From: an uncultured Acidobacteriota bacterium
GTDB lineage: Bacteria; Acidobacteriota; Vicinamibacteria; Vicinamibacterales; CAVVIG01
Assembly: GCA_963840225.1 (NCBI GenBank)
Contig: CAWIYH010000002.1
Span: 135,934-199,933 of the forward strand
Length of the DNA: 64,000 nucleotides
Direction: 5' to 3'
Of the stretch, positions 7,596-43,833 are shown piece by piece; the first letter of the stretch is position 1; every line of letters starts with the position of its first letter. The notes below the pieces were generated by a model. The model ran no database searches and was not told where the DNA came from. It saw nothing but the letters and a program-made list of their open reading frames with translations. The translations under genes were made by a program, and so were the position numbers.

Positions 7596-7610
7596 GTTGC
7601 CGATCCCCAA

Positions 7611-10600: not shown

Positions 10601-10702
10601 CACCGAGAGCGCCCGGACCGACTGGAGCCCGGCGATCAGGATGACGAGGTTGACGACGACGGCCAGAACGGGTCGTCGGATGAACAGGTCCGTCAGCTTC
10701 AT
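7611..10702 (-). CDS. RND (AcrB/MdtB-type) inner-membrane efflux pump with an apparent 1-nt frameshift near the 5' end
   Basis: The 987-aa ORF is a typical HAE1 RND protein. The true N-terminus MKLTDLFIRRPVLAVVVNLVILIAGLQSVRALSVRQYP starts at ATG 10702 in another frame. The span is 3092 nt (3n+2). Confidence 0.9.
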
Positions 10703-11826: not shown

Positions 11827-12115
11827 GGGTACCTCTTCATCGCCCGGGGGCGCTCGCGACACCGCCTGTCGCAGATGCGTCCCGCGATGCGGGATCCCTA
11901 CGGCAAATGGAGATCCACTCGGGTGGCGGCCGCCGGCAGAGTGGCCGGACGCCGGGAATACAGCGAGTTCCGGGCGGCCCGCGTCGAACCGACGAAATGC
12001 CGAGCTTGCGATCGGCTGCGTAGCCGCACGCAGGTTGCGCACCTGCGCGCAGTCGCATCAGGGCATCCGTCGGCCGGACGGCCGGCAGAGGCTCACGTCA
12101 CGGGTTTCGCGCGGC

Positions 12116-12443: not shown

Positions 12444-14474
<2,031 letters not shown>

Positions 14475-14542
14475 AGCAAGCGATCTTCCTGTGCCGGCGC
14501 CTCATGCGATCGGCATGACCCGCGCGGGCTACTAGCGTTTGA

Positions 14543-17214: not shown

Positions 17215-19209
<1,995 letters not shown>

Positions 19210-19410
19210 CCACGCCTCCGACCGCCGCACATAGACACCCGCTATTCCAACGGCATTCGCGGCACAACAAAAGATCCAGATGCAGTCGGACGACAGGAGC
19301 CAAGGGATGAGCGCTCGTCGAAAAGGAGGGACGGCAGACAAGGTCATCCTCTCCAGCCGCTTCTCGCGAGCGTCCGGTGTGGATTACGCTAGGTAATCGG
19401 TGCCACCGAG

Positions 19411-24292: not shown

Positions 24293-27200
24293 TCACTCGC
24301 GCTCGGCCCGGATGATCCGATACTCCCACGCGCCCGATCGCATCTGCTCGTAGACCATCGACCCGGGCACTGCCAGGAAGTTGTCGATCGCGCTCCCGCC
24401 GCCGAACGCCTGCGAGCGCGTGGCGGCGACCTCGTCGCACGACGCGAGGACGTTGGCCGTGATCGCGCGGTCCTGCGTGATCCGCAACCGGAGCGGCCCG
24501 AGGAGCGCGCGCACTTCCATCCACCGCGGCACCGGCAGGAGATCCGTGTAGAGGAACAGGCCGCCGCTCCTCAGCACCCGTGCGACCTCGCCGTAGAACG
24601 CGCGCAGGTTCGGATAGGTATGCGACGACTCGACGTTGGTGACCACGTCGAACGATCCGGCGTCGAACGGCAGATGCTCGGCGTCGCCGACGTCGAACCG
24701 GACGGCGGGGCGCGTGTGCGTGCGCCGGCAGAACGCGATCGCTTCGGGCGAGAGATCGACGCCCGTCACGTCGGCCTCCCAGCGTTCAGCCATCAGGGCG
24801 GCCGTGCCGCCTCGCCCGCAGCCGACGTCGAGCACCCCGCGCCGGCGCAGGTCGGCGCGGCCGATCAGCTCGAACGCCAGCCGAACCGAGCTTGGATTGA
24901 ACACGCCGGAGGGAACGTCGAATGCCGCCTCGTCGGCGCCGTCTCCGAGGGAGATGTAGCCGTAGTTCAGGAAGAACGACGCGCCGCCGACGCCGGCCCG
25001 CTCCAGCCGGCGCGTGATGTCGTCGTAGAACTCCCGATAGCTCGCCTTCGCGGCGGTCGCAGGCGCGGCGCCCTCGAGCGGAATGGGCGAGGGCGCGCGG
25101 CTCTCGGCGCCGGCCCAGGGAAGGCCGGCCGGCGCATCGTCGGCCCCGCCGGCCGCCTGCGCCTGCTCGACGAACACGGCGAGCTCGGCGATCGTCGGCG
25201 CCTGAAACAGTTTCAGCACGGGCAGCTCGATCTGGAGCCGATCCCGGATCTCGGACGCGACCTGCACGGCGAGCAGCGAGTGGCCGCCCAGATCGAAGAA
25301 GCGATCGTGGATGCCGATCGGGTCGATGGCGAGCTGGTTGCCCCAGATGTCGGCCAGTTCGCGTTCGGTCGCCGTACGCGGCTCGACGAACGCGGTCGTC
25401 AGGTTCGGGCGTGGATGCCGCTCGACCGGCGATCCCTTGGCCGGCGCCGAATCGGCGTGGCGGATCCAGGCCTTCAGCCGCGCCGCGAGGTCGCTGACGG
25501 CCACCAGCAGCCGCGGCCCGACGTCGGCGCCGAGGATCCGCAGGAACGCCTCGAGGCCCTCCGGCGGATGGATGGCGGTCGGCATCGAGGCGGCCTGGGC
25601 CTCGGCGGCGTTGTCCCACAGGTCCCAGCCGATGCTGAGCCAGCCGTCGCCGGCTGCGTCGGCCAGCGCGTCGAGGACGGCGTTCGCGGCGGAATACGCC
25701 GCGAGGCCCAGCCCGCCGAGGACGCTGGCGATCGACGAGTGGAGGACCCAGCGCCGCGGCTCGCGTCCGCGAAACGCCTCCGTCAGGTACAACAAGCCGC
25801 GCAGCTTCGGCGAGAACTGCGCTTCCATGACCTCGATGCCGGTCTCGGCCGCCGACGCGAACGCGGCCGCGTCGATTCGTGCCGCGCCGTGGATGACGAG
25901 ATCGATCCGGCCGAAGCGCTCGAACGCGAGGTCGACGGCCGTCTTCACCTGGTGGCCGTCGTTGAGATCGGCTTTCAACACGAGCACGTCGTCGCGCTCG
26001 GCCCGGAGGCGCGCCAGTCGCGCGAGCAGGTTCCGGTGCTCGGGCGGGGTGGCCGGATCCTCGCCGTGGGCGCGCCACGCCGAGGGCTCGGGCACCGCCG
26101 TGCGGCCGACCAGGATCAGCTTCGCATGCAGCCGCGAGAACATGCCCTCGGCCAGATTGATGCCCATGTGGCCGAGTCCGCCGGTCACCATCACCACCGG
26201 CTGCTCCGGCAGGCCAACGGGCGCGCGGGCCTCGCGAATCTCGACCGGCTCGTAGGTTTCGACCAGCCGCCGTCCACCCCGCAGGGCGACGGCCGGCTCC
26301 GGCGCGCCCGCGGCGAGCTCGGCGACGATCATGTCGGGCACGGCCGCGTCGTCGTCGACGTCGACGTGAGTGACGCGCAGGCCCGGATGCTCCTGCGGGA
26401 GCACTTTGGCCGACCCGATGCCGAGGGCTCTCGCCGCGTCGATCGCGTCGGCCGCCTCCACGCGGCGCGTGCCGCGAGCCACCAGGACCATCGCGAGAGG
26501 GCGAACGGTCGCCTGTCCGCTCAGCGCGTGTGCGAGTCGCATCGGGGCCAGCAGCGTCACGACGCCGGCGACGTCCAGATCGGTCGAGCCGGGCGGTTCG
26601 GCCGTCCAGCAGTCGACGATGCCGGCCAGGCGGTTGTCCCGGGTGCAGACCTGCGCAGCCAGCCGCTTGAAACCCCCGGGATCTGACGGATCGATCGTGT
26701 ACTGGTCGTCGCCGGCGCGATCGAACCGATCGCCCTGCCGCACGACAATCGCGTGAGCGCCGGCGCTCAGGAGCCGGGCGGAGACCGCCGCGCCGACTCC
26801 ACCGCCCTCGTCGAAGACGAGGATGCGCCGCCCGGCGAGCGACCCCGGTGCCCAGGCCACGGGCGCGGCCTCCCGCCAGATCGGCCGATGAAACCAGTTC
26901 GACGTGTCGCGAGCCTCGTGCGCGCGGCGCTCGACGGCGTGCCCGGGCCGCGGGCCGATCCAGTAGGTCCGCCGCTCGAAGGGGTACGTCGGCAGGCTGA
27001 CCCTCGTCCGTCGCTCCGATCGGTGGAATCCGTCCCAGTCGACGCTCGCGCCGCCGGCCCACAGCTGGCCGAGCGACGAGAGCATCACCTCGGTGCCCGA
27101 CCGGCGATCGTGCGCGCCCGGCAGCGACGTCGAACAGGGAGGCGGAGGTCCGCCGTTCCTCGCGATCTCGCTGGCGAAGGTGACCAGCGTGTTGCCAGGG

Positions 27201-29629
27201 CCGACTTCGAGGAACGCGTGGCTCTTGCCGACCGGTCCCTGGCCGGACGCGATCGTGCGCACGGCGTCGGCAAAGCGGACGGTGGATCGCAGCTGTGCAC
27301 TCCAGTACCAGGGGGACGTGACGGCGCTGCCGGCCCACTCGCCGGTCAGCGTCGCCGCGAAGGGAAGCGACGGCGGCGACAGCGGAACGGCCGCGACGAC
27401 CTCCTCGAACTCGCGCAGGATCGGGTCCATCATCGACGAATGGAAGGCGTGCGACGTGTGCAGGCGCCGCGCCGCGATCGATTCGCGCGCCAGCGCGGCC
27501 TCCACGCGATCGATGGCAGCATCCGGTCCGGAGAGCACCGAGTATCCAGGGCCGTTCACCGCGGCCAGCGAGACGTCGCCGCCCACGAAGGGCTCGAGCG
27601 CCGAGGCCGGCGCCATGGCCGCGAGCATCGATCCGCGAGGCAGGCCCGCAATCAGGCGGCCGCGGCGGGCGATGATCGAGAGCGCATCGTCCAGGCTCAT
27701 CACGCCGCCGAGCGTGGCGGCGACATATTCGCCGACGCTATGTCCCACCATCGCGGCCGGTTGAACGCCCCAGGAGCGCCACAATTCCGCGAGCGCGTAC
27801 GCGACCGTGAAGAGCGCCGGCTGCGCCCATTGCGTGTTCTTCAGCACGTCGGCCGCGTTCCGCCGGCGCCGCTCGGAGGGGAAGAGCAGCGTGCGCAGAT
27901 CGGCGCCGACCAGCGGCTTGAGAACACGGGCGCAACGGTCGATCGCCCGCCGGACCACGGGTTCGGTCTCGTAAAGGTCGCGGCCCATTCCCGGATACTG
28001 CGATCCCTGTCCCGGGAACATGAAGACGACGGCCCGTTCGGCGCCCGCGGCGGCGGCCGGCAGCCGCGCGGGATCGGCCAGCGAGTCCATCAGGCCCGAT
28101 CGATCGTCGCCGCCGACCACCACGGCTCGCCGGTGCCTGAACGCGCGGCGTCCCACGTGCAGCGTGAACGCGACGTCGGCCAGATCGAGCTCCGGGTGCG
28201 ACTGGAGGTGCCGGCCGAGCCGGGCGGTCGCCGCGTCGAGCGCCGATTCGCTCCGCGCCGACAGGACGATCAGCTGATGCGAGCGCCGCTCTTTCACCCC
28301 GGGCCGTTCCGGCGCCTCCTCGAGCACGACATGGGCGTTCGTGCCGCCCACGCCGAACGAGCTCACGCCGGCGCGCCGCGGCGTGCCGTTGCGCAGCCAG
28401 GGCTGCAGGGTCGTCGTCACATAGAACGGGCTCGTGGCGAAGTCGATGGCCGGGTTCGGGCTCTTGTAGTGCACGGTCGGCGGAATCGCGCCGTTCTCGA
28501 GCGTGAGGACCGCCTTGATCAGGCCGGCGACTCCCGCGGCGCACGACAGGTGCCCGAAGTTCGACTTCGCCGACCCGATGCCGCAGTAGCCCCGCTCACT
28601 CGAGGCGGACTTGAACACCTCGTTGAGCGCGGCCACCTCGATCGGGTCGCCGAGAATCGTCCCGGTTCCGTGCGCTTCGACGTAGCCGATCGATTCGGCG
28701 GACACGCCGGCCATTGCATGCGCGGCGCGGATGGCCGCCGCCTGGCCGCGAAAGCTCGGTGCCGTGTAGCCGACCTTGTCGTTGCCGTCGTTGTTCAACC
28801 CCGTGCCGAGGATCACGGCGCGGATCCGGTCGCCGGCCGCCAGCGCATCGCGGAGGCGCTTGAGGACCACCAGGCCGACGCCGCTCCCGACGATCGTGCC
28901 CTGAGCCTCCGCGTCGAAGGGCCGGCAGTGGCCGTCCGGCGACAGGATGGATCCGGGGGTGTAGTAGTAGCCGCCGCGCTGGGGCACGCGGACCGTGACG
29001 CCGCCGGCGAGCGCCATGTCGCACCGGCCCGCGTTCAGGCTCTCGCAGGCCAGCGACACCGCGACCAGCGACGTCGAGCACGTCGTCTGCACGACGATGC
29101 TGGGGCCGCGCAGGTTGAGGCGGTACGACGCCTGCGTGCAGAGGTGGTCCTTGTCGTTGGTCACCATCAACTGCATGCCGTCGATGTACTGGAGCGCCTC
29201 GATGTTCTGGTACAGCTGGTAGAGGTACGTGCTCATCTCGCACCCGCCATACAGGCCGATCGGTCCGGGGAAGGTGGCCGGATCGTAGCCGGCGTCCTCG
29301 AGCGCCTCCCAGCAGGTTTCGAGGAAGATGCGGTGCTGCGGATCGGTGAGCGACGCATCGCGTGCGGAGAAGCCGAAGAACTCGGCGTCGAACTCGTCCA
29401 CGTGGTCGAGCACCGGCGAGGCGTTCACGTAGCCGGGCAGGCGCGAGATGTTGTCGGGCACGCCGGCCGCCCGCATGTCCTCGGGCGTCAACGTCGCAAT
29501 CGACTCGACGCCCGCGGCCAGGTTGTGCCAGTACGCGTCGAGGTCGTTCGCGCCGGGAAACCGCCCGCGCATGCCGATAATCGCGACCGGCTCATGGCGC
29601 GGTCCGGTGCCGGCGCCGTTGCCTTTCAT
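24293..29629 (-). CDS. type I polyketide synthase, single module KS-AT-KR-ACP with C-terminal SAM methyltransferase
   Basis: KS: TTCSTSLVA, EAHGTGT, KSNFGHL. AT: FPGQGSQ, GHSVGEY, SHAFHS. KR: VTGGLGHMG ... SSIASVLGGLGLAAYSAAN. Carrier: FFDLGGHSLLAVQV. MT: VLDVGCGRGGTAALMAE ... FDVVTNVESSH. Confidence 0.95.
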   Translation of the reverse strand: MKGNGAGTGPRHEPVAIIGMRGRFPGANDLDAYWHNLAAGVESIATLTPEDMRAAGVPDNISRLPGYVNASPVLDHVDEFDAEFFGFSARDASLTDPQHRIFLETCWEALEDAGYDPATFPGPIGLYGGCEMSTYLYQLYQNIEALQYIDGMQLMVTNDKDHLCTQASYRLNLRGPSIVVQTTCSTSLVAVSLACESLNAGRCDMALAGGVTVRVPQRGGYYYTPGSILSPDGHCRPFDAEAQGTIVGSGVGLVVLKRLRDALAAGDRIRAVILGTGLNNDGNDKVGYTAPSFRGQAAAIRAAHAMAGVSAESIGYVEAHGTGTILGDPIEVAALNEVFKSASSERGYCGIGSAKSNFGHLSCAAGVAGLIKAVLTLENGAIPPTVHYKSPNPAIDFATSPFYVTTTLQPWLRNGTPRRAGVSSFGVGGTNAHVVLEEAPERPGVKERRSHQLIVLSARSESALDAATARLGRHLQSHPELDLADVAFTLHVGRRAFRHRRAVVVGGDDRSGLMDSLADPARLPAAAAGAERAVVFMFPGQGSQYPGMGRDLYETEPVVRRAIDRCARVLKPLVGADLRTLLFPSERRRRNAADVLKNTQWAQPALFTVAYALAELWRSWGVQPAAMVGHSVGEYVAATLGGVMSLDDALSIIARRGRLIAGLPRGSMLAAMAPASALEPFVGGDVSLAAVNGPGYSVLSGPDAAIDRVEAALARESIAARRLHTSHAFHSSMMDPILREFEEVVAAVPLSPPSLPFAATLTGEWAGSAVTSPWYWSAQLRSTVRFADAVRTIASGQGPVGKSHAFLEVGPGNTLVTFASEIARNGGPPPPCSTSLPGAHDRRSGTEVMLSSLGQLWAGGASVDWDGFHRSERRTRVSLPTYPFERRTYWIGPRPGHAVERRAHEARDTSNWFHRPIWREAAPVAWAPGSLAGRRILVFDEGGGVGAAVSARLLSAGAHAIVVRQGDRFDRAGDDQYTIDPSDPGGFKRLAAQVCTRDNRLAGIVDCWTAEPPGSTDLDVAGVVTLLAPMRLAHALSGQATVRPLAMVLVARGTRRVEAADAIDAARALGIGSAKVLPQEHPGLRVTHVDVDDDAAVPDMIVAELAAGAPEPAVALRGGRRLVETYEPVEIREARAPVGLPEQPVVMVTGGLGHMGINLAEGMFSRLHAKLILVGRTAVPEPSAWRAHGEDPATPPEHRNLLARLARLRAERDDVLVLKADLNDGHQVKTAVDLAFERFGRIDLVIHGAARIDAAAFASAAETGIEVMEAQFSPKLRGLLYLTEAFRGREPRRWVLHSSIASVLGGLGLAAYSAANAVLDALADAAGDGWLSIGWDLWDNAAEAQAASMPTAIHPPEGLEAFLRILGADVGPRLLVAVSDLAARLKAWIRHADSAPAKGSPVERHPRPNLTTAFVEPRTATERELADIWGNQLAIDPIGIHDRFFDLGGHSLLAVQVASEIRDRLQIELPVLKLFQAPTIAELAVFVEQAQAAGGADDAPAGLPWAGAESRAPSPIPLEGAAPATAAKASYREFYDDITRRLERAGVGGASFFLNYGYISLGDGADEAAFDVPSGVFNPSSVRLAFELIGRADLRRRGVLDVGCGRGGTAALMAERWEADVTGVDLSPEAIAFCRRTHTRPAVRFDVGDAEHLPFDAGSFDVVTNVESSHTYPNLRAFYGEVARVLRSGGLFLYTDLLPVPRWMEVRALLGPLRLRITQDRAITANVLASCDEVAATRSQAFGGGSAIDNFLAVPGSMVYEQMRSGAWEYRIIRAERE

Positions 29630-30603
29630 CGCGCGCCCTCGACCGCGGCGGGGGGAGCCTGGGGAGCGGTCGCGGCGGACGCCTCCTGGCGCGGCTCGGC
29701 GGTGGTCGCCGTGATGCGGAGCGGAATCTCCAGCCGCGGTTCCCCTTCCCGGCTGATGCGCAGTCCGGCGACGTACACGACGTCAGGCTGGTACGTCTCC
29801 CGGTCGAGCACGAGCGATACGACGAGCGTTGTCTCCTCGTTCGGGCCGAGCACGAGATCGCCAGGATCAATCTGGATCGCCGGGACGAAGGCCGGGCCGA
29901 CGCCGTCGGCGCGCCGGACATCGGTCACCTGGCACCGGATCGCCGCCGGCTCGTCGCGCGTGTTCTCGATCGTCAGCGAGAGGGCGGCGCGTTCCCCCGA
30001 GGGTCCGGCCAGGTGCAGCACGGGCGCATCCGCAACCGACGGGTGCGGGGCCGCCAGGACGGCCCGGAGGAGCTCCTCCTGGAAATCGGCCCCGAGGTCG
30101 GTGGCGCCCTGCAGCATGTCGAAGTAGAGCCGGCCCAGGTCGCGGATCTGTTCGGTCGCGCGAGCCGCATAGAAGTTCGAGAACGCGCCCTGGGTTTCCG
30201 GGGCGTCCGCGCGGCCCGCGGCGGCGCGCTCCACTTCGGCCTGATAGTCCCGGACCGCCCGGTGGTTGACCTCGTTGGCGTACTCGACGAGGCGCCGGAG
30301 CCAGGCCATTGGATCGGCGGCGTCGAAGGCCGGTGGCGGATGCGACGCGTGCCCCGCCACCTGCACCAGGCCGGCGAAGAAACACGCGCTCAACTCCGTC
30401 AATCGGGCGGAGTAGGCCGCGCCGCGGGACTCCGAGAGCGCAGACAGAAGGTCACGTACGGTGGCCGGCGACAGTTCGCCCTGGGCCACCCGTCGAAGAA
30501 CGCTGGAGTAGAGATCGAGCGCACGAACCGACCGCTGCGCCGAGCGCATGACGTAGTGCGCATAGGAAGCTGACCAGTCGGCCGATCCCTCCGTCTGCAC
30601 CAT
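29626..30603 (-). CDS. hypothetical protein: phasin-like helical N-half + beta-sandwich-like C-half; translationally coupled to the PKS
   Basis: GGGAGG RBS. Its stop overlaps the PKS ATG (ATGA at 29626-29629). It is a paralog of 32869-33882. No signal peptide or TM segment. Confidence 0.75.
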   Translation of the reverse strand: MVQTEGSADWSASYAHYVMRSAQRSVRALDLYSSVLRRVAQGELSPATVRDLLSALSESRGAAYSARLTELSACFFAGLVQVAGHASHPPPAFDAADPMAWLRRLVEYANEVNHRAVRDYQAEVERAAAGRADAPETQGAFSNFYAARATEQIRDLGRLYFDMLQGATDLGADFQEELLRAVLAAPHPSVADAPVLHLAGPSGERAALSLTIENTRDEPAAIRCQVTDVRRADGVGPAFVPAIQIDPGDLVLGPNEETTLVVSLVLDRETYQPDVVYVAGLRISREGEPRLEIPLRITATTAEPRQEASAATAPQAPPAAVEGAR

Positions 30604-30817: not shown

Positions 30818-31339
30818 ATGCCCGGTGGGGGAAAAGGCGGCGGGTCCAGCACGGTCACCGTGAACAACGGGCCGGTGACGGTCGACGCCGACAGCACCGT
30901 CGAGGTCGTGGGCCTCGACAACATCAAGCTGACGCTGCAGCCGTCGCCGCTCAAGACGGAATCGAAACAGGAGCTGGTTCTCCCGCAGCCGTTCAAGACC
31001 GAGAGCAAGGTCGACACGACCTCGGGCATCACGAGCGACAGCAAGAGCGCGATGGCGATCGACCTCAAGCCGGTCGCGCTCGACGTCTGCCTGAACACGA
31101 AGCTGCCGCAGGGCCAGATCTGCCAGCCCTTCTCGTATCACCTCGGCGTCACGTGGTTCGGCGTCGAGCTGCTCGGCCTCAATTTCGGCGGCGAGTCGCG
31201 TGTCGTGCTGCAGGATCTCCCGAAGAAGCCGTCGATCGAGTGGCCGGCCCAGCAGAATGCCGGCCCGGCGCACGATGCCGGTCGCGATCGTCCGTTCCAG
31301 GCGGCCGGCGATCGCGGCCTCCGCGTGCGGGTGAAGTAG
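30818..31339 (+). CDS. hypothetical protein (173 aa), Gly-rich N-terminus, beta-rich
   Basis: GGAGG at 30808-30812 precedes ATG 30818. MPGGGKGGGSSTVTVNNGPVTVDADSTVEVVGLDNIKLTL.... Internal near-repeat PLKTESKQE / PFKTESKVD. Confidence 0.7.
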   Translation: MPGGGKGGGSSTVTVNNGPVTVDADSTVEVVGLDNIKLTLQPSPLKTESKQELVLPQPFKTESKVDTTSGITSDSKSAMAIDLKPVALDVCLNTKLPQGQICQPFSYHLGVTWFGVELLGLNFGGESRVVLQDLPKKPSIEWPAQQNAGPAHDAGRDRPFQAAGDRGLRVRVK

Positions 31340-31347
31340 GAACCGCC

Positions 31348-32136
31348 GTGGCGGCACAGACCCCTCGGAGAATCGCGCTCCTCAACGACGCCGCGCAGCC
31401 GCTGGTCGTCGTCGGGCCGCCCCGGGCGATGCGCGGCGAGCTGCGCCTCCAGAATTCCACGGAACGGAAGGTCGTCCTCCGGCAGCTTCAGCTGCGCGCT
31501 GCCGCGCCGCCGCGGGCCAAGGGCGCTCGCGGGCCGCACCCCGTGCCGCTGCCGGGCCACGCGGTGGCGCTGCGCCGGGTCGTCGTCCGCGCCGGAGAAG
31601 CCCGGCACGTGTCGATTGCCCTCGCGCTGGATCCGGCGACGCCTCCCGGCACCTATCACGCCGAGCTCGATGTCGACGGCGATCAGCGCAACGTTCTCCT
31701 GCACGTCGTCGAAGACGTGGCGTTTTCGATGTCGCCGCGGGAGCTCGTGATCCCCAACCAGGCGGGCGCCAAGGTCGAGAAGGCGGTCGTCATCGAGAAC
31801 CTCGGCAACGTGCCGCTGACGGTGAAGACGATCGGCGCCGTGGTGCTCGACGAGGAGCTGGCGCACTGCCGGGCGCTCCGGGGCGCCCTGGCCGACGTCG
31901 GCGACACAATGAAGAACCTCGACGATTTCGCGGTCGCCCTCGGCCGTCGCTACCGCGCGATCTACGGCACCCTCGCCTTGAAGGTCCAGAACGAGAAGCT
32001 GACGGTCGAGCCCGGCAGGACGGCGACCCTCGATCTGACGATTACGCTCCCCGACAAGCTCGAGCCGCGCGGGCGCTACACCGGATACGCGGCGATCTCT
32101 ACAGGTGCTTTGACGTTCACCATCGTGCCCGACTAG
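31348..32136 (+). CDS. hypothetical protein with two beta-sandwich-like modules (262 aa)
   Basis: GTG 31348 lies 8 nt after the upstream stop. LRLQNSTERKVVLRQLQL...PGTYHAELDVDG and VVIENLGNVPLTVKTIG...LTVEPGRTATLDLTITLPD. Confidence 0.7.
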   Translation: MAAQTPRRIALLNDAAQPLVVVGPPRAMRGELRLQNSTERKVVLRQLQLRAAAPPRAKGARGPHPVPLPGHAVALRRVVVRAGEARHVSIALALDPATPPGTYHAELDVDGDQRNVLLHVVEDVAFSMSPRELVIPNQAGAKVEKAVVIENLGNVPLTVKTIGAVVLDEELAHCRALRGALADVGDTMKNLDDFAVALGRRYRAIYGTLALKVQNEKLTVEPGRTATLDLTITLPDKLEPRGRYTGYAAISTGALTFTIVPD

Positions 32137-32164: not shown

Positions 32165-32860
32165 ATGCACGCCTCGCACGACGAGTGGTCCCGCCAGGAC
32201 CGCGGACCGGCCGTCTACTACGGATATTGCGGCCGGACGCGCCGGTTCCGCATGATGGATCTGCCCGACTACCTGTCCAACGCCCAGCAGGGGATGTCGC
32301 GGCTGGCCACCGATCCGCAGGGCATCTACCAGGAGATGATCCAGAGCTACTACGGGCCCTCGGCGGCCGGGGGCGGCGGCGTCCACGGCTGGGCGCTCCA
32401 CGACTGCGGGTGCCACGGCGGCCGCGACTGTCACTGCGAGTGCTGCGTCTCAGACGCCGACGTCCTCGTGCACGCCCGTTGCGGCGAGGTTCGCCGGATT
32501 CCGGTCACCTTCGAGAACGATACCCGGCGAGAGCGCAACGTCACCCTGGAGCTCGGCCAGTTCGCGGCCTCCGGCGGCACCGATCTGAAGTGGAACGCGC
32601 AGCTGTCGGAGCAGGCGTTCACCCTCGCGCCGTGCGGCGAACATACGGTCATCGTCACGGTACGCGTGGAATGCGATGGTCCAGACGTCGCCGGCGCCGT
32701 GAACGAGCGCGGCGTCGGCACCGTGGATCGATGCCGGACCGGGTACGCCACCCTGCGCGCAGAGGGCTGCCTGGTGCGGCCGGCCGTGCTCGCGGTTGCC
32801 GTGCTGCCCGACGACTGCGATTCGTATCGCCGTCCCTGCAGCTGCGGCTGCTGCAACTGA
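32165..32860 (+). CDS. Cys-rich hypothetical protein (17 Cys in 231 aa) with a central beta-sandwich-like module
   Basis: AGGAGGG RBS. HDCGCHGGRDCHCECC (aa 79-94) and C-terminal PCSCGCCN. Middle region VTFENDTRRERNVTLELGQF...FTLAPCGEHTVIVTVRV. Confidence 0.75.
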   Translation: MHASHDEWSRQDRGPAVYYGYCGRTRRFRMMDLPDYLSNAQQGMSRLATDPQGIYQEMIQSYYGPSAAGGGGVHGWALHDCGCHGGRDCHCECCVSDADVLVHARCGEVRRIPVTFENDTRRERNVTLELGQFAASGGTDLKWNAQLSEQAFTLAPCGEHTVIVTVRVECDGPDVAGAVNERGVGTVDRCRTGYATLRAEGCLVRPAVLAVAVLPDDCDSYRRPCSCGCCN

Positions 32861-32868
32861 GTGGACCG

Positions 32869-33882
32869 GTGACGCAGGCGACCGACTGGGGGCTCAGGTT
32901 CCAGGAGCTCGCCGCCGACGCCGGGCAGATGTACGCGCGCACGCTGCGCCGCTACAACGAGCTGCTCGATCGCGTCGCGCGCGCCGAGGTCAGCCCACAG
33001 GAGGTCGAGCGGCAGTTCCGCGAATACCTGCAGGAACAGGCGGCCGCGTCGACGCGTGAGCTGGTCGAGCTGAGCGTCGGTCTCCTCGCCGGCCTGCTCC
33101 ACGTCGAGGCCCGGTACCGCGAGGCGCTCCTCGACGGTCTCCTGCCGGCAGAGGGCGCTCCGCCTCCGCCTCCCTCGCCGTCGAGCATCGACGTGACGAA
33201 CTGGTTTCAGGCGCTCGCCACGTACGCGGCGGAGCAGAGCGCGCGCGGCATCGCGCGGCACCAGCAGCTCGTCGAGCGGGTCGCATCCGGCGAGATTCCA
33301 CCGTCCAGGGTGCAGGAGCAGGGACGCCGGTATCTCGAGCGGCACGCCCCCGAGTTTCTCGGCGACGTCATGAACCTGGGGCTCACCTTCGTCGGCCGGC
33401 TGCAGCGGTCGTCGGCATCCTTCGCCGACGGCCTGTACAATCGCGTGCTCGGCGCCGAGCCGGCCGGCGCCCCGTCGGGCCCCGAGCCGCCGGTCTGCGT
33501 CGACCTGCGCGGGCCGTCAGGCAGCGTGGCATCGGGGGGCATCGTCGTGGAGAACTCGCGTCCGCAGCCGGCGGACGTGGTGTGCCGCGCCTCGGAGTTC
33601 GCGCGGCGCAGCGGCGGGCGCCGTGTCCGCGCCCCGCTCGAGATCCTCCCATCGCAGTTCACGCTCGCCCCGGGCGGACAGAAGGACGTCGCCATCCGTC
33701 TGCCGCTCGACCCCGAGCAGTTCGAGACGGGAGCCGACTACGTGGCCACGCTCCTCGTCTCGGGCGCCGGCGAGCAGGATCTCGTCGTGCCGCTGATCGC
33801 ACGAGCCGAAGCCGGCGCCGCGCCGCCCGCCCCGGCGACCCCCGCCGGGCCACCGCGCGCCCGGCGCAAAGCCCGAAGCTAG
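32869..33882 (+). CDS. hypothetical protein, paralog of 29626-30603 (phasin-like helices + beta-sandwich)
   Basis: GTG 32869 lies 8 nt after the upstream stop. RVARAEVSPQEVERQF and RVASGEIPPSRVQEQG repeats. C-terminus IVVENSRPQPADVVCRASEF...FTLAPGGQKDVAIRLPLD. Confidence 0.75.
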   Translation: MTQATDWGLRFQELAADAGQMYARTLRRYNELLDRVARAEVSPQEVERQFREYLQEQAAASTRELVELSVGLLAGLLHVEARYREALLDGLLPAEGAPPPPPSPSSIDVTNWFQALATYAAEQSARGIARHQQLVERVASGEIPPSRVQEQGRRYLERHAPEFLGDVMNLGLTFVGRLQRSSASFADGLYNRVLGAEPAGAPSGPEPPVCVDLRGPSGSVASGGIVVENSRPQPADVVCRASEFARRSGGRRVRAPLEILPSQFTLAPGGQKDVAIRLPLDPEQFETGADYVATLLVSGAGEQDLVVPLIARAEAGAAPPAPATPAGPPRARRKARS

Positions 33883-33997: not shown

Positions 33998-34023
33998 CAT
34001 ATATCTGTCTTGACAAATATATG
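33998..34023. promoter_or_regulatory. 12-2-12 inverted repeat, ArsR/SmtB-type operator candidate
   Basis: CATATATCTGTC-TT-GACAAATATATG has 11 of 12 positions complementary per arm. It overlaps the -35 box of the arsM promoter. Confidence 0.55.
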
Positions 34024-34038
34024 TCAGCGGCCTACACT
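34010..34038 (+). promoter_or_regulatory. sigma-70-type promoter TTGACA-N17-TACACT
   Basis: TTGACA at 34010-34015 and TACACT at 34033-34038, then AGGAG (34064-34068) and ATG 34077. It is an AT-rich island. Confidence 0.55.
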
Positions 34039-34076: not shown

Positions 34077-34928
34077 ATGTCAGACATCAAGCAGGCCGTT
34101 CAAGAGAAATATGGCGCCATCGCCGCGTCCGTCGCACAGTCCTCGGCCGCCTCCAGGGTCGGCTGCTGCGGGCCGACGGCGTGCGGAGGGGACGACCCGA
34201 TCACGTCGAAGCTGTACTCCGACGCGGAGACAACCGGCCTGCCGGCCGCGGCCGTGGCGGCGTCCCTCGGATGCGGCAACCCGACGGCGCTCATCGACCT
34301 CGAGCCCGGCGAGACCGTCCTCGACCTCGGTTCGGGCGGCGGCATCGACGTCCTGCTGTCGGCGAAGCGGGTCGGTCCCACCGGCAAGGCCTACGGGCTC
34401 GACATGACCGACGAGATGCTGGCGCTCGCGCGTGAGAATCAGCAGAAGGCCGGCGCGGCCAACGTCGAGTTCCTCAAGGGCACCATCGAGGCGATCCCGC
34501 TCCCCGACGCCTCGGTCGACGTCGTCATCTCCAACTGCGTCATCAACCTGTCGAGCGACAAGGACGCCGTGCTGCGCGAGGCGTTCCGGGTGCTGAAGCC
34601 GGGCGGCCGGTTCGCCGTGTCCGACGTGGTGGTTCGCGGCGAGGTTCCCCCCGACATCCGGCGCAACATGGAATTGTGGGTCGGCTGCATCGCCGGCGCG
34701 CTCGAAGAGCGCGAGTACACCGAGAAGCTGCGAGCGGCCGGCTTCGGCGACGTGACGGTCGAGCCGTGGCGCGTCTACCAGGTGGAGGACGCGCGGGCGT
34801 TTCTGACCGAGGCCGGCGTCGACGTCGATCGGTTCGCCCCGCAGGTCGAGGGCAGGTTCGCGAGCGCGTTCGTCCGCGCCCGCAAGCCGGACGCGGCGCC
34901 CTGCTGCGGTCCGCGCTGCTGCTCGTAG
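34077..34928 (+). CDS. arsM: arsenite S-adenosylmethionine methyltransferase
   Basis: [16 protein letters not shown]..., Cys pairs ([16 protein letters not shown]), the SAM motif [19 protein letters not shown], and a C-terminal PCCGPRCCS. Confidence 0.9.
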
Positions 34929-34937
34929 GGATCTGCC

Positions 34938-35135
34938 GTGCCGGCTGCCGCCGGCCTGCCGGCGCACCTGACTGTCGATTGCATCGCGGCGGGCCTCGAC
35001 CTGATGGTGGATCCGCCGCTCGCGAACGCGCGGTACGAGCGGCTCGGCCATGTCTTCCGCGACGTCCGGATTCTGCGGCTGCCGCTCGTCCTCAACGGGG
35101 TGGGCGGACTGCGGCGGATTGTGGGGATCCCGTGA
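34938..35135 (+). CDS. small hypothetical ORF (65 aa) between arsM and arsC
   Basis: GC3 is very high in this frame. Its stop overlaps the arsC GTG (GTGA at 35132-35135). I recognise no family. Confidence 0.4.
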   Translation: MPAAAGLPAHLTVDCIAAGLDLMVDPPLANARYERLGHVFRDVRILRLPLVLNGVGGLRRIVGIP

Positions 35136-35542
35136 GCGACGATCCGCGCACCGTGGTCTTCGCGTGCGTGCACAACGCGGGGCGGTCGCAGATGGCGGCG
35201 GCGTTCTTCAATCGCATTGCCGACGCCCGCCGGGCGCGCGCGCTGTCGGCCGGCACCGAGCCCGCCGACCACGTTCATCCGGAGGTCGTGGCGGTCATGC
35301 ACGAGGCGGGCATCGACCTGAGCGCCGCCACGCCGCGGCTGCTCACGGCCGACCTCGCCCGCTCGATCGACTGGCTCGTCACGATGGGGTGCGGCGAATC
35401 GTGCCCGGTGGTTCCGGGCGCCAGGCGCGAAGACTGGCCGCTCGCCGATCCGAAGGGTCAGCCGCCGGCCCGCGTCCGCGAGATTCGGGACGAGATCCGG
35501 CGCCACGTCGAGGACTTCATCCGTCGCGAAGGGCTCGGGTGA
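35132..35542 (+). CDS. arsC: arsenate reductase, LMW-PTPase type
   Basis: VVFACVHNAGRSQMAAAFF (CX5R P-loop), later MGCGESCP, and DPKGQ. Confidence 0.88.
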   Translation: MSDDPRTVVFACVHNAGRSQMAAAFFNRIADARRARALSAGTEPADHVHPEVVAVMHEAGIDLSAATPRLLTADLARSIDWLVTMGCGESCPVVPGARREDWPLADPKGQPPARVREIRDEIRRHVEDFIRREGLG

Positions 35543-35614: not shown

Positions 35615-37510
35615 TCAGCGGATCGAATAGTCCTGCGCCAGGGGCGACGAGAGAATGGAGAGGGCCAGGAGGTTCTGCGGGTCCTTCCCGTTGACCGCCT
35701 TCGCCAGCTGGAACGCCTTCGCGTACTCCTGCTTGCGGAAGTAGTACGTCGCCAGCAGCGCCTGCAAATCGAGGTTGGAGGGGAACCACTTGCGCGCGGT
35801 GTCGGCCATCGCGCCGAGATTGTCGATGGCGCCCGACTGGAGGTACGCCCTCCCGAGCATCACGTAGGCCGCCTCCATGCGCGGATCGAGCAGCACCGCC
35901 TTCTCCAGGTACGGCGTGGCCAGGTCGGTGTCCCGTTCGGCGAGATACAGCGTGCCGAGACAGAAGTAGCCATCGGGGTTGAGCGGCTCCAGGCGCTGGG
36001 CCTTCAGGAAGGCCAGCTCGGCCTTGTCGTAGACGTGCTGCTCGGCAAACAGCTTTCCGATGTCGATCCACGCCGCCTGGAAATCCGGATAGATGCGAAT
36101 CGCCTGCGTGAAAGCCCGCATCGCGGCCGCCAGGCGTTCCTGCCGCTCGTCGGGCGACGACAGCGTAGCGCTCTCGCTCTGGAGATCGGATCCGTAGATC
36201 ACCTGCGCGGCGGCGTTGTTCTGCATGTAGCGGATCCGGTTTCGGATGAGCGTCGAGTCGTTGCGCCAGTCTCCGCTGACGACGGCCGTGCGCGCGAAGA
36301 AGGCGACGAGGACGATCGACAGAAGAGCCAGCGCCCCTCTTGCGGTTCCGCTCGCCAGCGTCGGCGCTCTCAGCGGGATGGATCCCGCCCTGAAGACACA
36401 GTAGATCGCGACCATCGACAGCCCGACCGACGGCATGAACAGATACCGATCGGCCATCGTGTCGGGCGCGTAGACCAGCAGGTTCGAGTACACCGAGTAG
36501 GTGACGACGGCCCATAGGACGCCGAAGGCGAGCGGGCTCCGCGCGGGCAGCGTCCTCCACACCAGGACGGCCAGCGCCGCCAGACCGCCGATCACGAGCC
36601 ACGTCACGGGATCGACCCAGCTGTTCAATGGAATCTGGTCGTACCCGTACAGGTGAATGAGCGGGTGAGGCACCACGAACAGGCGAACGTAGCGGGCGAT
36701 GATGACGAGCGCCGTCGGGACGATGGCATGCGGACGGGTCGTCCACAGGAAGACATTGTTCAGGACCGTCGAGTTCAGGTGCAGGACGAGGTCCGGCGAG
36801 ACCGTGTTCAACAGTTTCCGAACCGCGACGGCCAGCACGGCGCTCGAGACCGCCGCAGCGCCGATCGCGATCGCGAGCCGGCGCGAGACCCCCGGGCCCG
36901 ACGATCGATACCAGGCCACGAGGGGCACGAGAGGAAGCAGCGTGATCGCGTTCTCCTTGGACAGGCAGGCGGCGAGAAAGCAGGCCGCGCCTCCCACGAA
37001 CGACCGCCACTTCAGCCCCTCGAGTCCCTCGACCAGCAGCATGATCGACGCCAGGCCGAAGACGAGGGCGAGAATCTCGTCCCGGCTCTTGATGTTCGCC
37101 ACGACTTCGACGTGCAGCGGGTGAACCGCGAACAGCGCCGCGACGAGCAGCGCGTACAGCGGACCGAGACCGACGAAGACGAACCGCGCGAACTGGTACA
37201 CCATCACGCAGGCGGCCGCGTACCACAGGACGTTGAAGGCGTGGCCGGTGTGCGGGTTGCCCCCGAACAGCTGGTATTCGACGGCGTGCAGCGCCTGAGG
37301 CACCGGGCGGTACTCGCTCTTGAACGGCACGCTCACCCGTTTCGTGAAGATGTCGGGCAGGCCCCGGATGCCCGCCTTCGTGTAGTCGTTGGCGGTGATG
37401 GCCAGCTTGTCGTCCCAGGCGTACCCGTACGTCACCGTGCCGGCGTACTGCAGCGCCGCCAGGACGAATATCACCAGCGGCAATAGGCGGGACGCGCGCG
37501 ACAACGCCAC
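35615..37510 (-). CDS. GT-C fold glycosyltransferase of the PMT_2/TMTC/ArnT type with C-terminal TPR repeats
   Basis: N-terminal YGYAWDDKLAITAN motif and ~11 TM helices. The C-terminus carries TPRs (AFTQAIRIYPDFQAAWIDIGKLF..., LEKAVLLDPRMEAAYVMLGRAYL...). GTG start lies 6 nt after the upstream stop. Confidence 0.8.
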   Translation of the reverse strand: MALSRASRLLPLVIFVLAALQYAGTVTYGYAWDDKLAITANDYTKAGIRGLPDIFTKRVSVPFKSEYRPVPQALHAVEYQLFGGNPHTGHAFNVLWYAAACVMVYQFARFVFVGLGPLYALLVAALFAVHPLHVEVVANIKSRDEILALVFGLASIMLLVEGLEGLKWRSFVGGAACFLAACLSKENAITLLPLVPLVAWYRSSGPGVSRRLAIAIGAAAVSSAVLAVAVRKLLNTVSPDLVLHLNSTVLNNVFLWTTRPHAIVPTALVIIARYVRLFVVPHPLIHLYGYDQIPLNSWVDPVTWLVIGGLAALAVLVWRTLPARSPLAFGVLWAVVTYSVYSNLLVYAPDTMADRYLFMPSVGLSMVAIYCVFRAGSIPLRAPTLASGTARGALALLSIVLVAFFARTAVVSGDWRNDSTLIRNRIRYMQNNAAAQVIYGSDLQSESATLSSPDERQERLAAAMRAFTQAIRIYPDFQAAWIDIGKLFAEQHVYDKAELAFLKAQRLEPLNPDGYFCLGTLYLAERDTDLATPYLEKAVLLDPRMEAAYVMLGRAYLQSGAIDNLGAMADTARKWFPSNLDLQALLATYYFRKQEYAKAFQLAKAVNGKDPQNLLALSILSSPLAQDYSIR

Positions 37511-43060: not shown

Positions 43061-43086
43061 CGTGGCTCTCTCCTGGCTGTGTCGAG

Positions 43087-43806
43087 TCAGCGCGGGCAGA
43101 CGGGGGTGAGGAACACGAAGGAGCCGCCCGCCGTCCACTCGTCGTCGCTGCGACGGTCCTCCCGTATCGCGTACGACAACCCGGCGCTCAGATCCTGAAG
43201 CGTCAATGTGTACCGCTCGAGCCGCCGCCCCGTGTCGCGATCCTGAACGGCCTGGGCTTCGAAGCCCGCGAGCCTGGGAAACAGGCCCGGACCGGTCAAC
43301 AGCACGGCTTCCGGATTCTCGATCAAAGCGCTGTTCGACGGCAGCTCGAACCGCTCGTGCCTGTCGCTCGCCAGGGCGCTCGAGTAATAGTTGCGCCCGA
43401 ATCCGTCGTGATGCACCGCAAGGTCGAACCTGAGCGCCGGCACGTCGCGGCTCGGGTCCGCGGCGCCCGCGCTGCCCGACGGCGGGCCGCTCCACGTGAG
43501 CGTCACCTGGGGGACCAGGCCCCCGGCGCCGGGGGAAGACACGCATTCGGAAACGACCGCCGGCTCCCAGAGCGCTCCGCCGGGCGTCTTCTCCAGCGTG
43601 ACGACCGGCATGGCCAGCTCGGGAGACGCGCTGATGAACCGGCGCCAGTTCTTCTCGAAGTCGGCGAAGCTCTTGTCCTGGGGTTTGCGGTCGGTGGTGA
43701 CGTCCTGCGTCAGGTCGATGCTGTCCCGATCCCGGCGCTGGGCCCGGCTGCACGCGAACGCTGCGACGAGACACGCCGAGAAGAGCAACGGCGAGACCGC
43801 CTGCAT
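43087..43806 (-). CDS. small secreted protein with N-terminal Cys (possible lipoprotein), copy 2
   Basis: MQAVSPLLFSACLVAAFAC... It ends FLTPVCPR. An alternative TTG start lies at 43824. Confidence 0.7.
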   Translation of the reverse strand: MQAVSPLLFSACLVAAFACSRAQRRDRDSIDLTQDVTTDRKPQDKSFADFEKNWRRFISASPELAMPVVTLEKTPGGALWEPAVVSECVSSPGAGGLVPQVTLTWSGPPSGSAGAADPSRDVPALRFDLAVHHDGFGRNYYSSALASDRHERFELPSNSALIENPEAVLLTGPGLFPRLAGFEAQAVQDRDTGRRLERYTLTLQDLSAGLSYAIREDRRSDDEWTAGGSFVFLTPVCPR

Positions 43807-43833
43807 AGCCCTAGCTATACCCAATCGAAAGGC

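What the first reader, a model, noticed from the sequence alone, without database searches (positions are those of the whole stretch)
32165..32860. Cytoplasmic protein with 17 cysteines in two dense clusters
Six Cys and three His sit in HDCGCHGGRDCHCECC (aa 79-94, nt ~32399-32446), and four Cys sit in the C-terminal PCSCGCCN. Seven more are spread through a beta-sandwich-like core. There is no signal peptide, so these are unlikely to be structural disulfides. The pattern suggests a metal, metalloid or Fe-S binding site. The arsM gene 1.2 kb downstream ends in a similar Cys-pair tail (PCCGPRCCS), but a functional link to arsenic is only a guess.
Basis: partly seen in the sequence, partly recalled or inferred. 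Interest (0 to 1): 0.65.

Follow-up and report, generated by a model that had tools for sequence, protein, structure and literature searches.

The report
Conserved cysteine-rich probable metalloprotein family
This is a real, strongly conserved but completely unannotated bacterial protein in which 11-14 invariant cysteines flank an immunoglobulin-like domain and most likely hold metal ions; it belongs to a small gene set that sits beside lipid-making enzymes in five phyla, and is not tied to the arsenic genes next to it here.

Summary
It is a real gene: more than 300 close homologues and 237 clusters at 50% identity, none annotated. It has no Pfam, NCBIfam, PADLOC or PDB sequence match.

Across 239 non-redundant members, C91 and C93 are invariant. 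C94, C157, C89, C190 and C202 are at least 97% conserved, and C81, C83, C218, C225, C229 and C230 are 92-95% conserved.

The core is a confidently predicted PapD/MSP-like beta-sandwich. The Cys clusters lie in low-confidence segments on either side of it. Many relatives carry extreme His/Cys-rich inserts just before the CxCC motif. The protein nearly always ends C-x-C-x-C-C followed by H, C, D or nothing.

The gene is the third in a tightly packed operon, X2-X3-X4-X5. This operon is syntenic in Acidobacteriota, Gemmatimonadota, Actinomycetota, Chloroflexota and Pseudomonadota. It usually sits beside a KS-AT-KR-ACP-MT polyketide synthase or a polyprenyl synthase. arsM accompanies it only in this window.

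Best reading (about 0.5): a polynuclear metal-thiolate protein that is a subunit of an uncharacterised cytoplasmic assembly linked to lipid synthesis. The metal, the stoichiometry and the function of the module are not shown.

The parts
32165..32860 (+). X4: the Cys-rich protein of the finding (231 aa, 17 Cys)
   Evidence: ORF with RBS. 314 homologues and 237 clusters at 50% identity. No Pfam, NCBIfam or PDB sequence match.
32216..32311 (+). X4 N-terminal conserved motif, YYGYCGRTxRYRMMDLPDYxSNxQQGMSR (aa 18-49). Predicted as a beta-hairpin plus helix; possibly a docking element.
   Evidence: Conserved in alignment A1 and in the Ruegeria/Hoeflea and P0128-type members. AF2 secondary structure. 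Absent from the polyprenyl/SDR-type subfamily.
32399..32446 (+). X4 N-proximal Cys/His cluster, HDCGCHGGRDCHCECC (aa 79-94), immediately before beta-strand A
   Evidence: C91 and C93 100%, C94 99%, C89 97%, C83 95%, C81 92% conserved in 239 members. AF2 pLDDT below 50. This is the site where relatives carry long His/Cys-rich inserts.
32462..32815 (+). X4 PapD/MSP/ASH-like beta-sandwich core (aa ~100-217) with loop cysteines C106, C157, C170, C190 and C202
   Evidence: AF2 pLDDT above 90 over most of the core. Foldseek PDB hits to Caf1M, FaeE, PapD, VAP-MSP and CEP192 ASH, E about 1e-5, probability 1.0. C157 99.6%, C190 and C202 97% conserved. C106 and C170 co-occur: 134 members have both, 101 have neither, 4 have one.
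32816..32857 (+). X4 C-terminal Cys tail, C218 ... PCSCGCCN (aa 218-231)
   Evidence: C218 and C225 95%, C227 87%, C229 and C230 93-94% conserved. 194 of 239 members end C-x-C-x-C-C plus 0-6 residues, and in 186 of these at most one residue follows: H 87, none 58, C 24, D 9.
30818..31339 (+). X2: first gene of the operon (173 aa). Gly-rich N-terminus, short PxKTE-like repeats, conserved C-terminal GLRVRVK strand.
   Evidence: RBS plus ATG. Syntenic in nearly all related loci. His-rich tails in some lineages. No family match.
31348..32136 (+). X3: second gene (262 aa), with two Ig-like segments
   Evidence: GTG start 8 nt after the X2 stop. Weak fn3_5 hit, 9.7e-5. Syntenic across phyla. 31% identical to the L010 counterpart.
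32869..33882 (+). X5: fourth gene (337 aa), with four long helices and a C-terminal PapD-like beta-sandwich
   Evidence: Starts 8 nt after the X4 stop. 149 homologues, all hypothetical. AF2 mean pLDDT 88.5. Foldseek gives the same PapD/MSP hits as X4. Paralogue of X1.
29626..30603 (-). X1: paralogue of X5 (325 aa), divergently transcribed, with a 4-nt overlap onto the PKS start
   Evidence: BLASTP X1 vs X5: 29% identity, E 1e-28. Conserved upstream of the PKS in L001-L008, L058 and L078.
24293..29629 (-). Type I PKS (1778 aa): KS-AT-KR-ACP plus a C-terminal O-methyltransferase-like domain, with no TE
   Evidence: Pfam domains. MT domain is nearest to phthiotriol/phenolphthiotriol dimycocerosates MT (3.6e-43) and fatty-acid O-MT Mtf2 (4.7e-39), both below cutoff. 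Linked to the module in Acidobacteriota, Gemmatimonadota, Actinomycetota and Alphaproteobacteria.

Best explanation
X4 is a soluble cytoplasmic protein. A rigid PapD/MSP-type beta-sandwich carries about 11-14 invariant cysteines at its N-terminal edge, in its loops and at its extreme C-terminus. These cysteines wrap one or more polynuclear metal-thiolate clusters (Zn(II), Cu(I), Ni(II) or Co(II) type, as in metallothioneins and the Cys/His tails of Ni/Zn metallochaperones).

The invariant cysteines form a fixed site. The variable His/Cys-rich insert before CxCC adds capture or storage capacity in some lineages. X4 does not act alone. It is one subunit of a conserved module, X2-X3-X4 with or without X1/X5, built from PapD-like sandwiches and long helical hairpins. 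This module is genetically coupled to an enzyme that makes a lipid (a polyketide or an isoprenoid).

Shown: the gene, its conservation, the fold of the core, the synteny and the lack of export signals. Inferred: metal binding, the type of metal, physical assembly of the X proteins, and any role in handling the lipid product.
For: (1) 14 Cys positions are 87-100% conserved over 239 non-redundant members from five phyla.
(2) The motif grammar is CxC, CC and CxCxCC with no CxxCxxC. By established knowledge this is typical of metallothionein and Cu(I)/Zn-thiolate clusters, not of ferredoxin-type Fe-S sites.
(3) Relatives insert strongly metal-chelating low-complexity sequence exactly at the N-proximal cluster. 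P0194 has 22 His and 15 Cys in 60 aa, and L027 has four RHHDCDECGG-type repeats. The partner X2 carries (D/H)-rich tails in several lineages.
(4) The residue after the terminal CC is a potential ligand or is absent: H 87, none 58, C 24, D 9 of 194. The E. coli SlyD metal-binding tail ends ...GGCGCH (2kfw_A).
(5) The Cys segments have pLDDT below 50 while the sandwich is above 90. This is expected for sites that fold only around a metal.
(6) There is no signal peptide or TM segment, so structural disulfides are unlikely.
(7) The operon packing (8, 28 and 8 nt gaps) and the cross-phylum X2-X3-X4 synteny indicate a multi-protein unit. PKS or polyprenyl synthase adjacency is seen in at least 20 loci.
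Against: There is no experimental or structural evidence of a bound metal. His90 and the other His residues of the window protein are not conserved outside its clade. No metal transporter, metal-responsive regulator or riboswitch is consistently nearby. His content of the X2 tail and the X4 linker is uncorrelated (rho 0.004). Nothing explains why a lipid-synthesis module would need a metal-thiolate protein.
Confidence: 0.5

Rival explanations
1. X4 is an iron-sulfur protein. The clusters bind [4Fe-4S] or [2Fe-2S] centres, and X4 serves as a redox partner for a lipid-modifying step.
For: There are many invariant Cys in a cytoplasmic protein. A DUF362 protein, from a family that Pfam associates with Fe-S proteins, follows the module in some lineages.
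Against: There is no CxxCxxCxxxC-type spacing. Adjacent CC and CxC ligands are uncommon for one Fe-S cluster (established knowledge). The minimal module (TE-II/PKS plus X2-X3-X4 in Ruegeria) contains no oxidoreductase. The His/Asp-rich expansions look like divalent-cation chelators.
Confidence: 0.13
2. The cysteines are cross-linking sites. X4 polymerises with the other PapD-like proteins into a robust intracellular lattice or coat through intermolecular disulfides, as in the Cys-rich spore-coat and exosporium proteins CotY, ExsY and CdeC.
For: The module has several MSP/PapD-like domains, a fold known to polymerise or to bind partner strands. X2 has a conserved terminal beta-strand after a flexible linker. 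C106 and C170 behave as a covarying pair.
Against: The cytoplasm is reducing and there is no export signal. The host taxa are not known to sporulate. The His-rich inserts are not explained. The minimal invariant set has an odd number of Cys (11).
Confidence: 0.1
3. The terminal Cys clusters are lipidation sites. The neighbouring enzyme supplies an activated lipid (acyl-S-ACP from the PKS, or prenyl diphosphate from the polyprenyl synthase), which is attached to X4 thiols. This would anchor the assembly to a membrane or a lipid body, as with Rab C-terminal CC/CXC geranylgeranylation, cysteine-string protein palmitoylation, and ComQ, a polyprenyl-synthase homologue that prenylates ComX.
For: CxCxCC sits strictly at the extreme C-terminus. 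The module alternates between two chemically unrelated lipid-activating enzymes. In several phyla the polyprenyl synthase is inserted directly after X4 (L016, L031, L035, L043, L044, L046). The acidobacterial PKS has no TE domain.
Against: Ruegeria has a type II thioesterase next to the PKS, which implies hydrolytic release. A third context type (SDR/SRPBCC/DUF362) has no lipid-activating enzyme within reach. No protein prenyl- or acyl-transferase is present. The His-rich inserts and the H/C/D terminal residue fit metal binding better.
Confidence: 0.08
4. X4 handles arsenic or another metalloid together with the adjacent arsM/arsC genes.
For: arsM lies 1.2 kb downstream and has Cys-pair tails. 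Vicinal thiols bind As(III) (established knowledge).
Against: arsM is absent from all 80 related loci and from the five independent 20-kb contexts examined. There is a 195-nt gap with a promoter-like site before arsM. The module travels with PKS or isoprenoid genes instead.
Confidence: 0.03

Closest known systems
Metallothioneins (bacterial SmtA/BmtA, mycobacterial MymT; the eukaryotic M3Cys9 and M4Cys11 domains)
   Same: Dense CxC and CC motifs. About 9-12 thiols are available for a polynuclear cluster. The segments are predicted disordered without metal. The location is cytoplasmic.
   Different: There is no sequence homology: no Pfam metallothionein model hits. X4 is 231 aa with a large folded Ig-like core that supplies some of the Cys. 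It is embedded in a conserved multi-gene module and is not a stand-alone stress gene.
His/Cys-rich tails of Ni/Zn metallochaperones (E. coli SlyD residues 151-196, the HypB CxxCGC site, Hpn/Hpn-like, UreE, CooJ)
   Same: Composition of the variable insert (runs of H, D, C, G). The ending ...CGC(C)H resembles the SlyD ending ...GGCGCH. The length varies between lineages.
   Different: There is no FKBP or GTPase domain, and no hydrogenase or urease genes are nearby. The invariant Cys set is much larger and partly sits on a beta-sandwich.
PapD-like / MSP / ASH immunoglobulin-like domains (pilus chaperones, major sperm protein, VAP, CEP192, HYDIN)
   Same: The fold of residues ~100-215: Foldseek E 1e-5, probability 1.0, TM up to 0.56 on the target. 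X5 has the same fold.
   Different: There is no sequence-family membership. X4 is cytoplasmic and bacterial. The Cys clusters have no counterpart. The Foldseek alignments show 6-21% identity.
Cu(I)-thiolate Cys motifs of Cox17 (CCxC) and of Ace1/Mac1 (CxCx4CxC...)
   Same: The local motif grammar, CxCx5CHCxCC.
   Different: These are eukaryotic proteins with unrelated folds and no homology. The resemblance is recalled from knowledge and is not a test.
Rab-type C-terminal CC/CXC prenylation motifs and the cysteine-string protein
   Same: A Cys cluster at the very C-terminus, with lipid-synthesis genes adjacent.
   Different: No bacterial protein prenyl- or palmitoyl-transferase is present. The His-rich inserts are unexplained. 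Nothing has been tested.

Membership tests
Metallothionein (for example Pfam Metallothio_Pro, SmtA/BmtA) | Sequence match to a curated metallothionein model | tested here: not met
   No Pfam or NCBIfam hit for the window protein or for any of 19 diverse members.
Metallothionein (operational definition) | Small size (under ~10 kDa), 15-30% Cys, no stable fold without metal | tested here: not met
   X4 is 231 aa and 7.4% Cys overall, with a confident beta-sandwich core. Only the two flanking segments are metallothionein-like.
Metallothionein (operational definition) | Stoichiometric binding of d10 metals in thiolate clusters | not testable with these tools
   This needs ICP-MS, native MS and UV-vis on purified protein.
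PapD-like / MSP / ASH beta-sandwich superfamily | Seven- or eight-stranded s-type Ig-like sandwich | tested here: met
   The AF2 core has pLDDT above 90. Foldseek PDB finds 122 hits at E<=1e-3, led by Caf1M, FaeE, PapD, VAP-MSP and CEP192 ASH.
PapD-like / MSP / ASH beta-sandwich superfamily | Sequence-profile membership (PF00345 PapD_N, PF00635 Motile_Sperm) | tested here: not met
   X4 has no hit. A distant X5 homologue gives PapD_N E 0.052 and Cep192_D3 E 0.01, both below cutoff.
Ferredoxin-type Fe-S proteins | CxxCxxCxxxC(P) or an equivalent spaced four-Cys motif | tested here: not met
   Direct reading of the sequence and of the family alignment shows only CxC, CC, CxCC and CxCxCC.
ars (arsenic resistance/methylation) operon component | Conserved linkage with arsM, arsC or arsR across genomes | tested here: not met
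   tblastn of ArsM against 80 loci (700 kb) hits only the PKS methyltransferase domains. arsM has a separate promoter-like site.
SlyD/HypB-type Ni metallochaperone | His/Cys-rich tail attached to an FKBP or GTPase domain, with hydrogenase or urease context | tested here: not met
   The tail composition is similar, but no such domain or gene context is present.
Phasin (for the partners X1 and X5) | Match to TIGR01841 / Pfam phasin models | tested here: not met
   TIGR01841 gives E 0.33 and 11 bits against a cutoff of 30. Foldseek of X5 is dominated by the sandwich, and no helical-domain match was found.
Anti-phage defence systems | Match to PADLOC models | tested here: not met
   No significant hit for X1-X5.

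The most novel reading that the evidence does not exclude
X2-X3-X4 (with or without X1/X5) is an undescribed kind of cytoplasmic protein assembly that is widespread in soil and marine bacteria. In this reading it is built from PapD/MSP-like sandwiches joined by strand complementation and metal-thiolate bridges. It packages, templates or is covalently loaded with the lipid made by the adjacent PKS or polyprenyl synthase, for example as a metal-cross-linked coat of a lipid body, or as a bacterial case of Cys-lipidated proteins.
Probability: 0.2. Interest if true: 0.85.

Novelty: new variant of a known kind. Interest (0 to 1): 0.62.

Why it matters
If the reading is right, this is a new metalloprotein architecture: a metallothionein-like thiolate site grafted onto an Ig-like scaffold. 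It also marks a conserved four- to six-gene module of entirely unknown function. The module is present in at least five phyla, including cultured Terrabacter, Pedococcus, Knoellia, Phycicoccus and Ruegeria isolates (Phenylobacterium and Hoeflea are represented only by MAGs), and it is repeatedly coupled to lipid biosynthesis.

The result gives an experimentally tractable entry point into a block of 'hypothetical' genes that antiSMASH-type mining would simply list as tailoring genes of a T1PKS or terpene cluster. It also corrects the tempting but unsupported link to arsenic.

Tried and rejected
- **Family and structure searches.** Pfam, NCBIfam, PADLOC and PDB sequence or profile searches of X4 and its partners found nothing above threshold.
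- **Common origin of the X4 and X5 sandwiches.** hhalign of the X4 and X5 profiles is only suggestive (E 0.004, probability 8.6%). Pairwise BLASTP gives E 0.001. A common origin is plausible but not established.
- **Locus retrieval.** The search for related loci on diverse alignments failed because no conserved 7-10 column stretch was available. I replaced it with a hand-built degenerate DNA pattern.
- **Regulatory features.** Rfam found no riboswitch in the region. The divergent promoter region has no conserved operator.
- **Shared His-richness.** His-richness of the X2 tail and of the X4 linker do not correlate.
- **Selenocysteine.** No variants were seen at the checked positions.
- **Literature.** Full-text searches for the motifs and for context keywords found nothing relevant.
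- **Other ideas dropped.** A Tat signal (the TRRFR motif is followed by no hydrophobic region). A GvpA-like X2 (no Pfam support). An encapsulin link (the polyprenyl synthase's best NCBIfam hit is a family-2 encapsulin cargo model, but at 154 bits against a 450-bit cutoff).
- **Not possible here.** Cys-Cys distances in the AF2 model could not be measured because coordinates are not exposed.

Full report
**1.

The ORF 32165..32860 (+) encodes 231 aa and has an AGGAGGG ribosome-binding site 8 nt upstream of the ATG. It has 17 Cys, at positions 22, 81, 83, 89, 91, 93, 94, 106, 157, 170, 190, 202, 218, 225, 227, 229 and 230. HDCGCHGGRDCHCECC is residues 79-94, and the protein ends PCSCGCCN. arsM (34077..34928; NF008823, 1.4e-109) ends PCCGPRCCS.

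Cys makes up 1.3% of the high-GC3 frames in the window. Seventeen Cys in 231 residues therefore has a probability of about 2e-8. None of the five module proteins has a hydrophobic segment that could be a signal peptide or a membrane helix.

**2. It is a real, conserved and unannotated family**

A protein search returned 314 homologues (46-67% identity among the 119 listed). All are 'hypothetical', and the named ones come from Vicinamibacterales MAGs. A profile search of 1.8 billion cluster representatives found 237 clusters. No Pfam, NCBIfam or PDB sequence match exists for the window protein or for 19 diverse members.

A degenerate DNA pattern built on the CxCC(V/I)xDAD...R..E.R motif retrieved 67 loci from GTDB species genomes, and all of them are true members. 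The taxa are:
- Acidobacteriota (Vicinamibacterales, Thermoanaerobaculia)
- Gemmatimonadota
- Actinomycetota (cultured Terrabacter, Pedococcus, Knoellia and Phycicoccus; Acidimicrobiia)
- Chloroflexota (Anaerolineae)
- Pseudomonadota (Phenylobacterium, Ruegeria, Hoeflea, Marinibacterium, and one Burkholderiaceae genome)

**3. Anatomy of X4**

In 239 non-redundant members the conservation is as follows:

| Position | Conserved |
|---|---|
| C91, C93 | 100% |
| C157 | 99.6% |
| C94 | 99% |
| C89, C190, C202 | 97% |
| C83, C218, C225 | 95% |
| C229, C230 | 93-94% |
| C81 | 92% |
| C227 | 87% |

Part of the shortfall comes from truncated or frameshifted entries.

C106 and C170 are present together in 134 members, absent together in 101, and split in only 4. 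The pair is present in all 6 aligned PKS-context loci and in none of the 8 polyprenyl-synthase loci. This defines two subfamilies.

AlphaFold2 with the family alignment gives a confident beta-sandwich (pLDDT above 90 for about residues 100-170 and 190-215). Residues 50-89 and 224-231, which hold the Cys clusters, have pLDDT below 50. Foldseek places the core among PapD-type pilus chaperones, MSP/VAP domains and ASH domains (E about 1e-5, probability 1.0).

**4. Evidence bearing on metal binding**

The region just before the invariant CxCC varies in length and in many lineages is extremely rich in His, Cys, Asp and Gly:
- P0194 has 22 His and 15 Cys in 60 residues.
- L027 has four RHHDCDECGG-type repeats.
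- The Terrabacter and Pedococcus members have (HD)n runs interleaved with CGC motifs.

194 of 239 members end C-x-C-x-C-C plus 0-6 residues, and in 186 of these at most one residue follows. That residue is H (87), absent (58), C (24) or D (9). The Ni/Zn-binding tail of E. coli SlyD ends ...GGCGCH (2kfw_A). That this tail binds metal is established knowledge, not tested here.

The CxC/CC grammar is typical of polynuclear thiolate clusters and differs from the CxxC-spaced ligands of ferredoxin-type Fe-S sites (established knowledge). The partner X2 also carries His/Asp-rich tails in some lineages (L010, L023, L053, L041, L030). His content of X2 and X4 does not correlate, however.

None of this demonstrates metal binding. 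It is why I rank metal binding first, at about 0.5.

**5. Genomic context**

X4 is the third gene of a tightly packed operon:

| Gene | Coordinates | Gap to next gene |
|---|---|---|
| X2 | 30818-31339 | 8 nt |
| X3 | 31348-32136 | 28 nt |
| X4 | 32165-32860 | 8 nt |
| X5 | 32869-33882 | (last gene) |

Divergently transcribed from this operon are X1 (29626-30603) and, overlapping X1 by 4 nt, a 1778-aa type I PKS. The PKS has KS-AT-KR-ACP plus a methyltransferase and no thioesterase. Its MT domain is nearest to lipid O-methyltransferases.

- X1 and X5 are paralogues (E 1e-28).
- X5 is predicted, at mean pLDDT 88.5, as four 31-50-residue helices followed by the same PapD-like sandwich.
- X2-X3-X4 synteny is essentially universal in the loci with enough flank.

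The partner genes fall into three types:
- **PKS type.** The PKS is found in Acidobacteriota, Gemmatimonadota, Acidimicrobiia, Jiangellales and Alphaproteobacteria. In Ruegeria a type II thioesterase replaces X1, and X5 is absent.
- **Polyprenyl type.** A polyprenyl diphosphate synthase, sometimes inserted between X4 and X5, is accompanied in L010 by a DUF2804-like protein, a 175-aa protein that resembles an SCP2 sterol-carrier domain by eye only (no family hit) and a WS/DGAT wax-ester synthase.
- **SDR/SRPBCC type.** A DUF362-containing ~711-732-aa protein with an SRPBCC-like C-terminal region (likeness by eye), a 3beta-HSD/epimerase-type SDR, a DUF2505 protein and a 428-aa unknown protein are found in Phenylobacterium, in Intrasporangiaceae and in other lineages.

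In the first two types the partner makes a lipid, but the module's function is not known. In the third type the only lipid-related hints are an SDR and weak or by-eye SRPBCC-family (DUF2505-type) matches.

**6. arsM is a neighbour only in this window**

The five independent 20-kb contexts do not carry it. tblastn of ArsM against all 80 loci hits only the PKS MT domains. A sigma-70-like site (TTGACA-17-TACACT) lies in the 195-nt gap before arsM.

**7. Rival readings**

- **Fe-S protein.** Disfavoured by the motif spacing and by the absence of a redox enzyme in the minimal module.
- **Disulfide cross-linked structural protein.** Disfavoured by the cytoplasmic location, though the polymerisation-prone fold and the covarying Cys pair keep it open.
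- **Lipidated Cys.** This would neatly explain the strictly C-terminal cluster and the alternation between two lipid-activating enzymes. It is weakened by the TE-II in Ruegeria, by the third context type and by the His-rich inserts.
- **Arsenic handling.** Essentially excluded by synteny.

**8. Comparison with known systems and verdict**

X4 works most like a metallothionein or metallochaperone tail grafted onto an Ig-like scaffold. It is not a member of any metallothionein, PapD/MSP, ferredoxin, ars, SlyD/HypB or phasin family by the tests run here (see the membership table). No publication mentioning the motifs or the cluster was found.

I rate it a new variant of a known kind: a new architecture and context for Cys-thiolate metal binding. 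There is roughly a 0.2 chance that the whole module is a categorically new lipid-associated cytoplasmic assembly. Interest is 0.62.

Noticed in passing
window 34077-35542 (+): arsM (NF008823, 1.4e-109) is followed by an ORF containing a low-molecular-weight-phosphatase-type ArsC motif (VVFACVHNAGRSQMAAAFF). A sigma-70-like promoter site lies at 34010-34038. This is an independent ars unit abutting the module.
   Followed up: partly
window 31316-31336 (X2 C-terminus), and the X2 orthologues in L012-L078: X2 ends in a conserved short beta-strand-like motif (GLRVRVK, GVKIRIK, PFVVRLG or PVVIDL). It follows a variable linker that is sometimes His/Asp-rich. The motif could be a donor strand for one of the PapD-like domains.
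   Followed up: partly
window 24293-29629 (-), and 29626-29629: The PKS has no thioesterase domain. Its C-terminal methyltransferase is closest to the mycobacterial phthiotriol and Mtf2 lipid O-methyltransferases, below cutoff. The PKS start overlaps the X1 stop by 4 nt, which suggests translational coupling. In L006-L008 a PPTase gene follows the PKS.
   Followed up: partly
L010 7125-8183 (-): The module-linked polyprenyl synthase has as its best NCBIfam match the 'family 2 encapsulin cargo polyprenyl transferase' model (4.5e-45, 154 bits against a 450-bit cutoff). It is not a member, and no encapsulin shell gene was seen.
   Followed up: no
L027 (Acidimicrobiaceae) X4 linker; P0194: These X4 relatives carry tandem repeats of RHHDCDECGG-type units, or (H)n/(CDCC)n runs, upstream of the invariant CxCC. 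The metal-chelating low-complexity segment appears to evolve by repeat expansion.
   Followed up: partly
L010 10001-10936 (P0195): One X4 homologue has a Rho_N/SAP-like helix-extended-helix insertion (Pfam Rho_N, 1.1e-4) in the variable loop between the last strands of the sandwich.
   Followed up: no
P0258 (590 aa), P0231 (361 aa): These database 'proteins' look like frameshifted read-throughs that fuse X4 to the downstream X5-like gene. They are assembly or gene-calling artefacts, but they confirm X4-X5 adjacency in that lineage.
   Followed up: no
window 37517-39899 (-) and 40715-43810 (-): Two large tandem paralogous genes with Asp-box/BNR-like repeats (SxDxGxTW) have nearly identical C-terminal ends (...NAFDVWVGTRGAGV(M/T)KVVLE...). 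One hits Sortilin-Vps10 (1.6e-12). Between them and arsC lies a 631-aa multi-pass membrane protein with C-terminal TPR repeats (35615-37510).
   Followed up: partly
window 5973-12057 (-), 12444-14501 (-), 17215-19383 (-): A three-gene RND efflux operon (outer-membrane factor, AcrB-family pump, and a CusB/HlyD-type adaptor) lies next to two GAF-domain sigma-54 activators. No link to the Cys-rich module is evident.
   Followed up: no
L075 1636-2922 (+); L080 3-1283; L060 7413-8003; L034 6812-7999: A conserved protein of about 428 aa with no family match (YPYAFH[IV]ALDGNG[LV]NGLEG...) sits immediately upstream of X2 in Intrasporangiaceae and in several Actinomycetota and Acidimicrobiia genomes. 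It is another candidate module component.
   Followed up: partly
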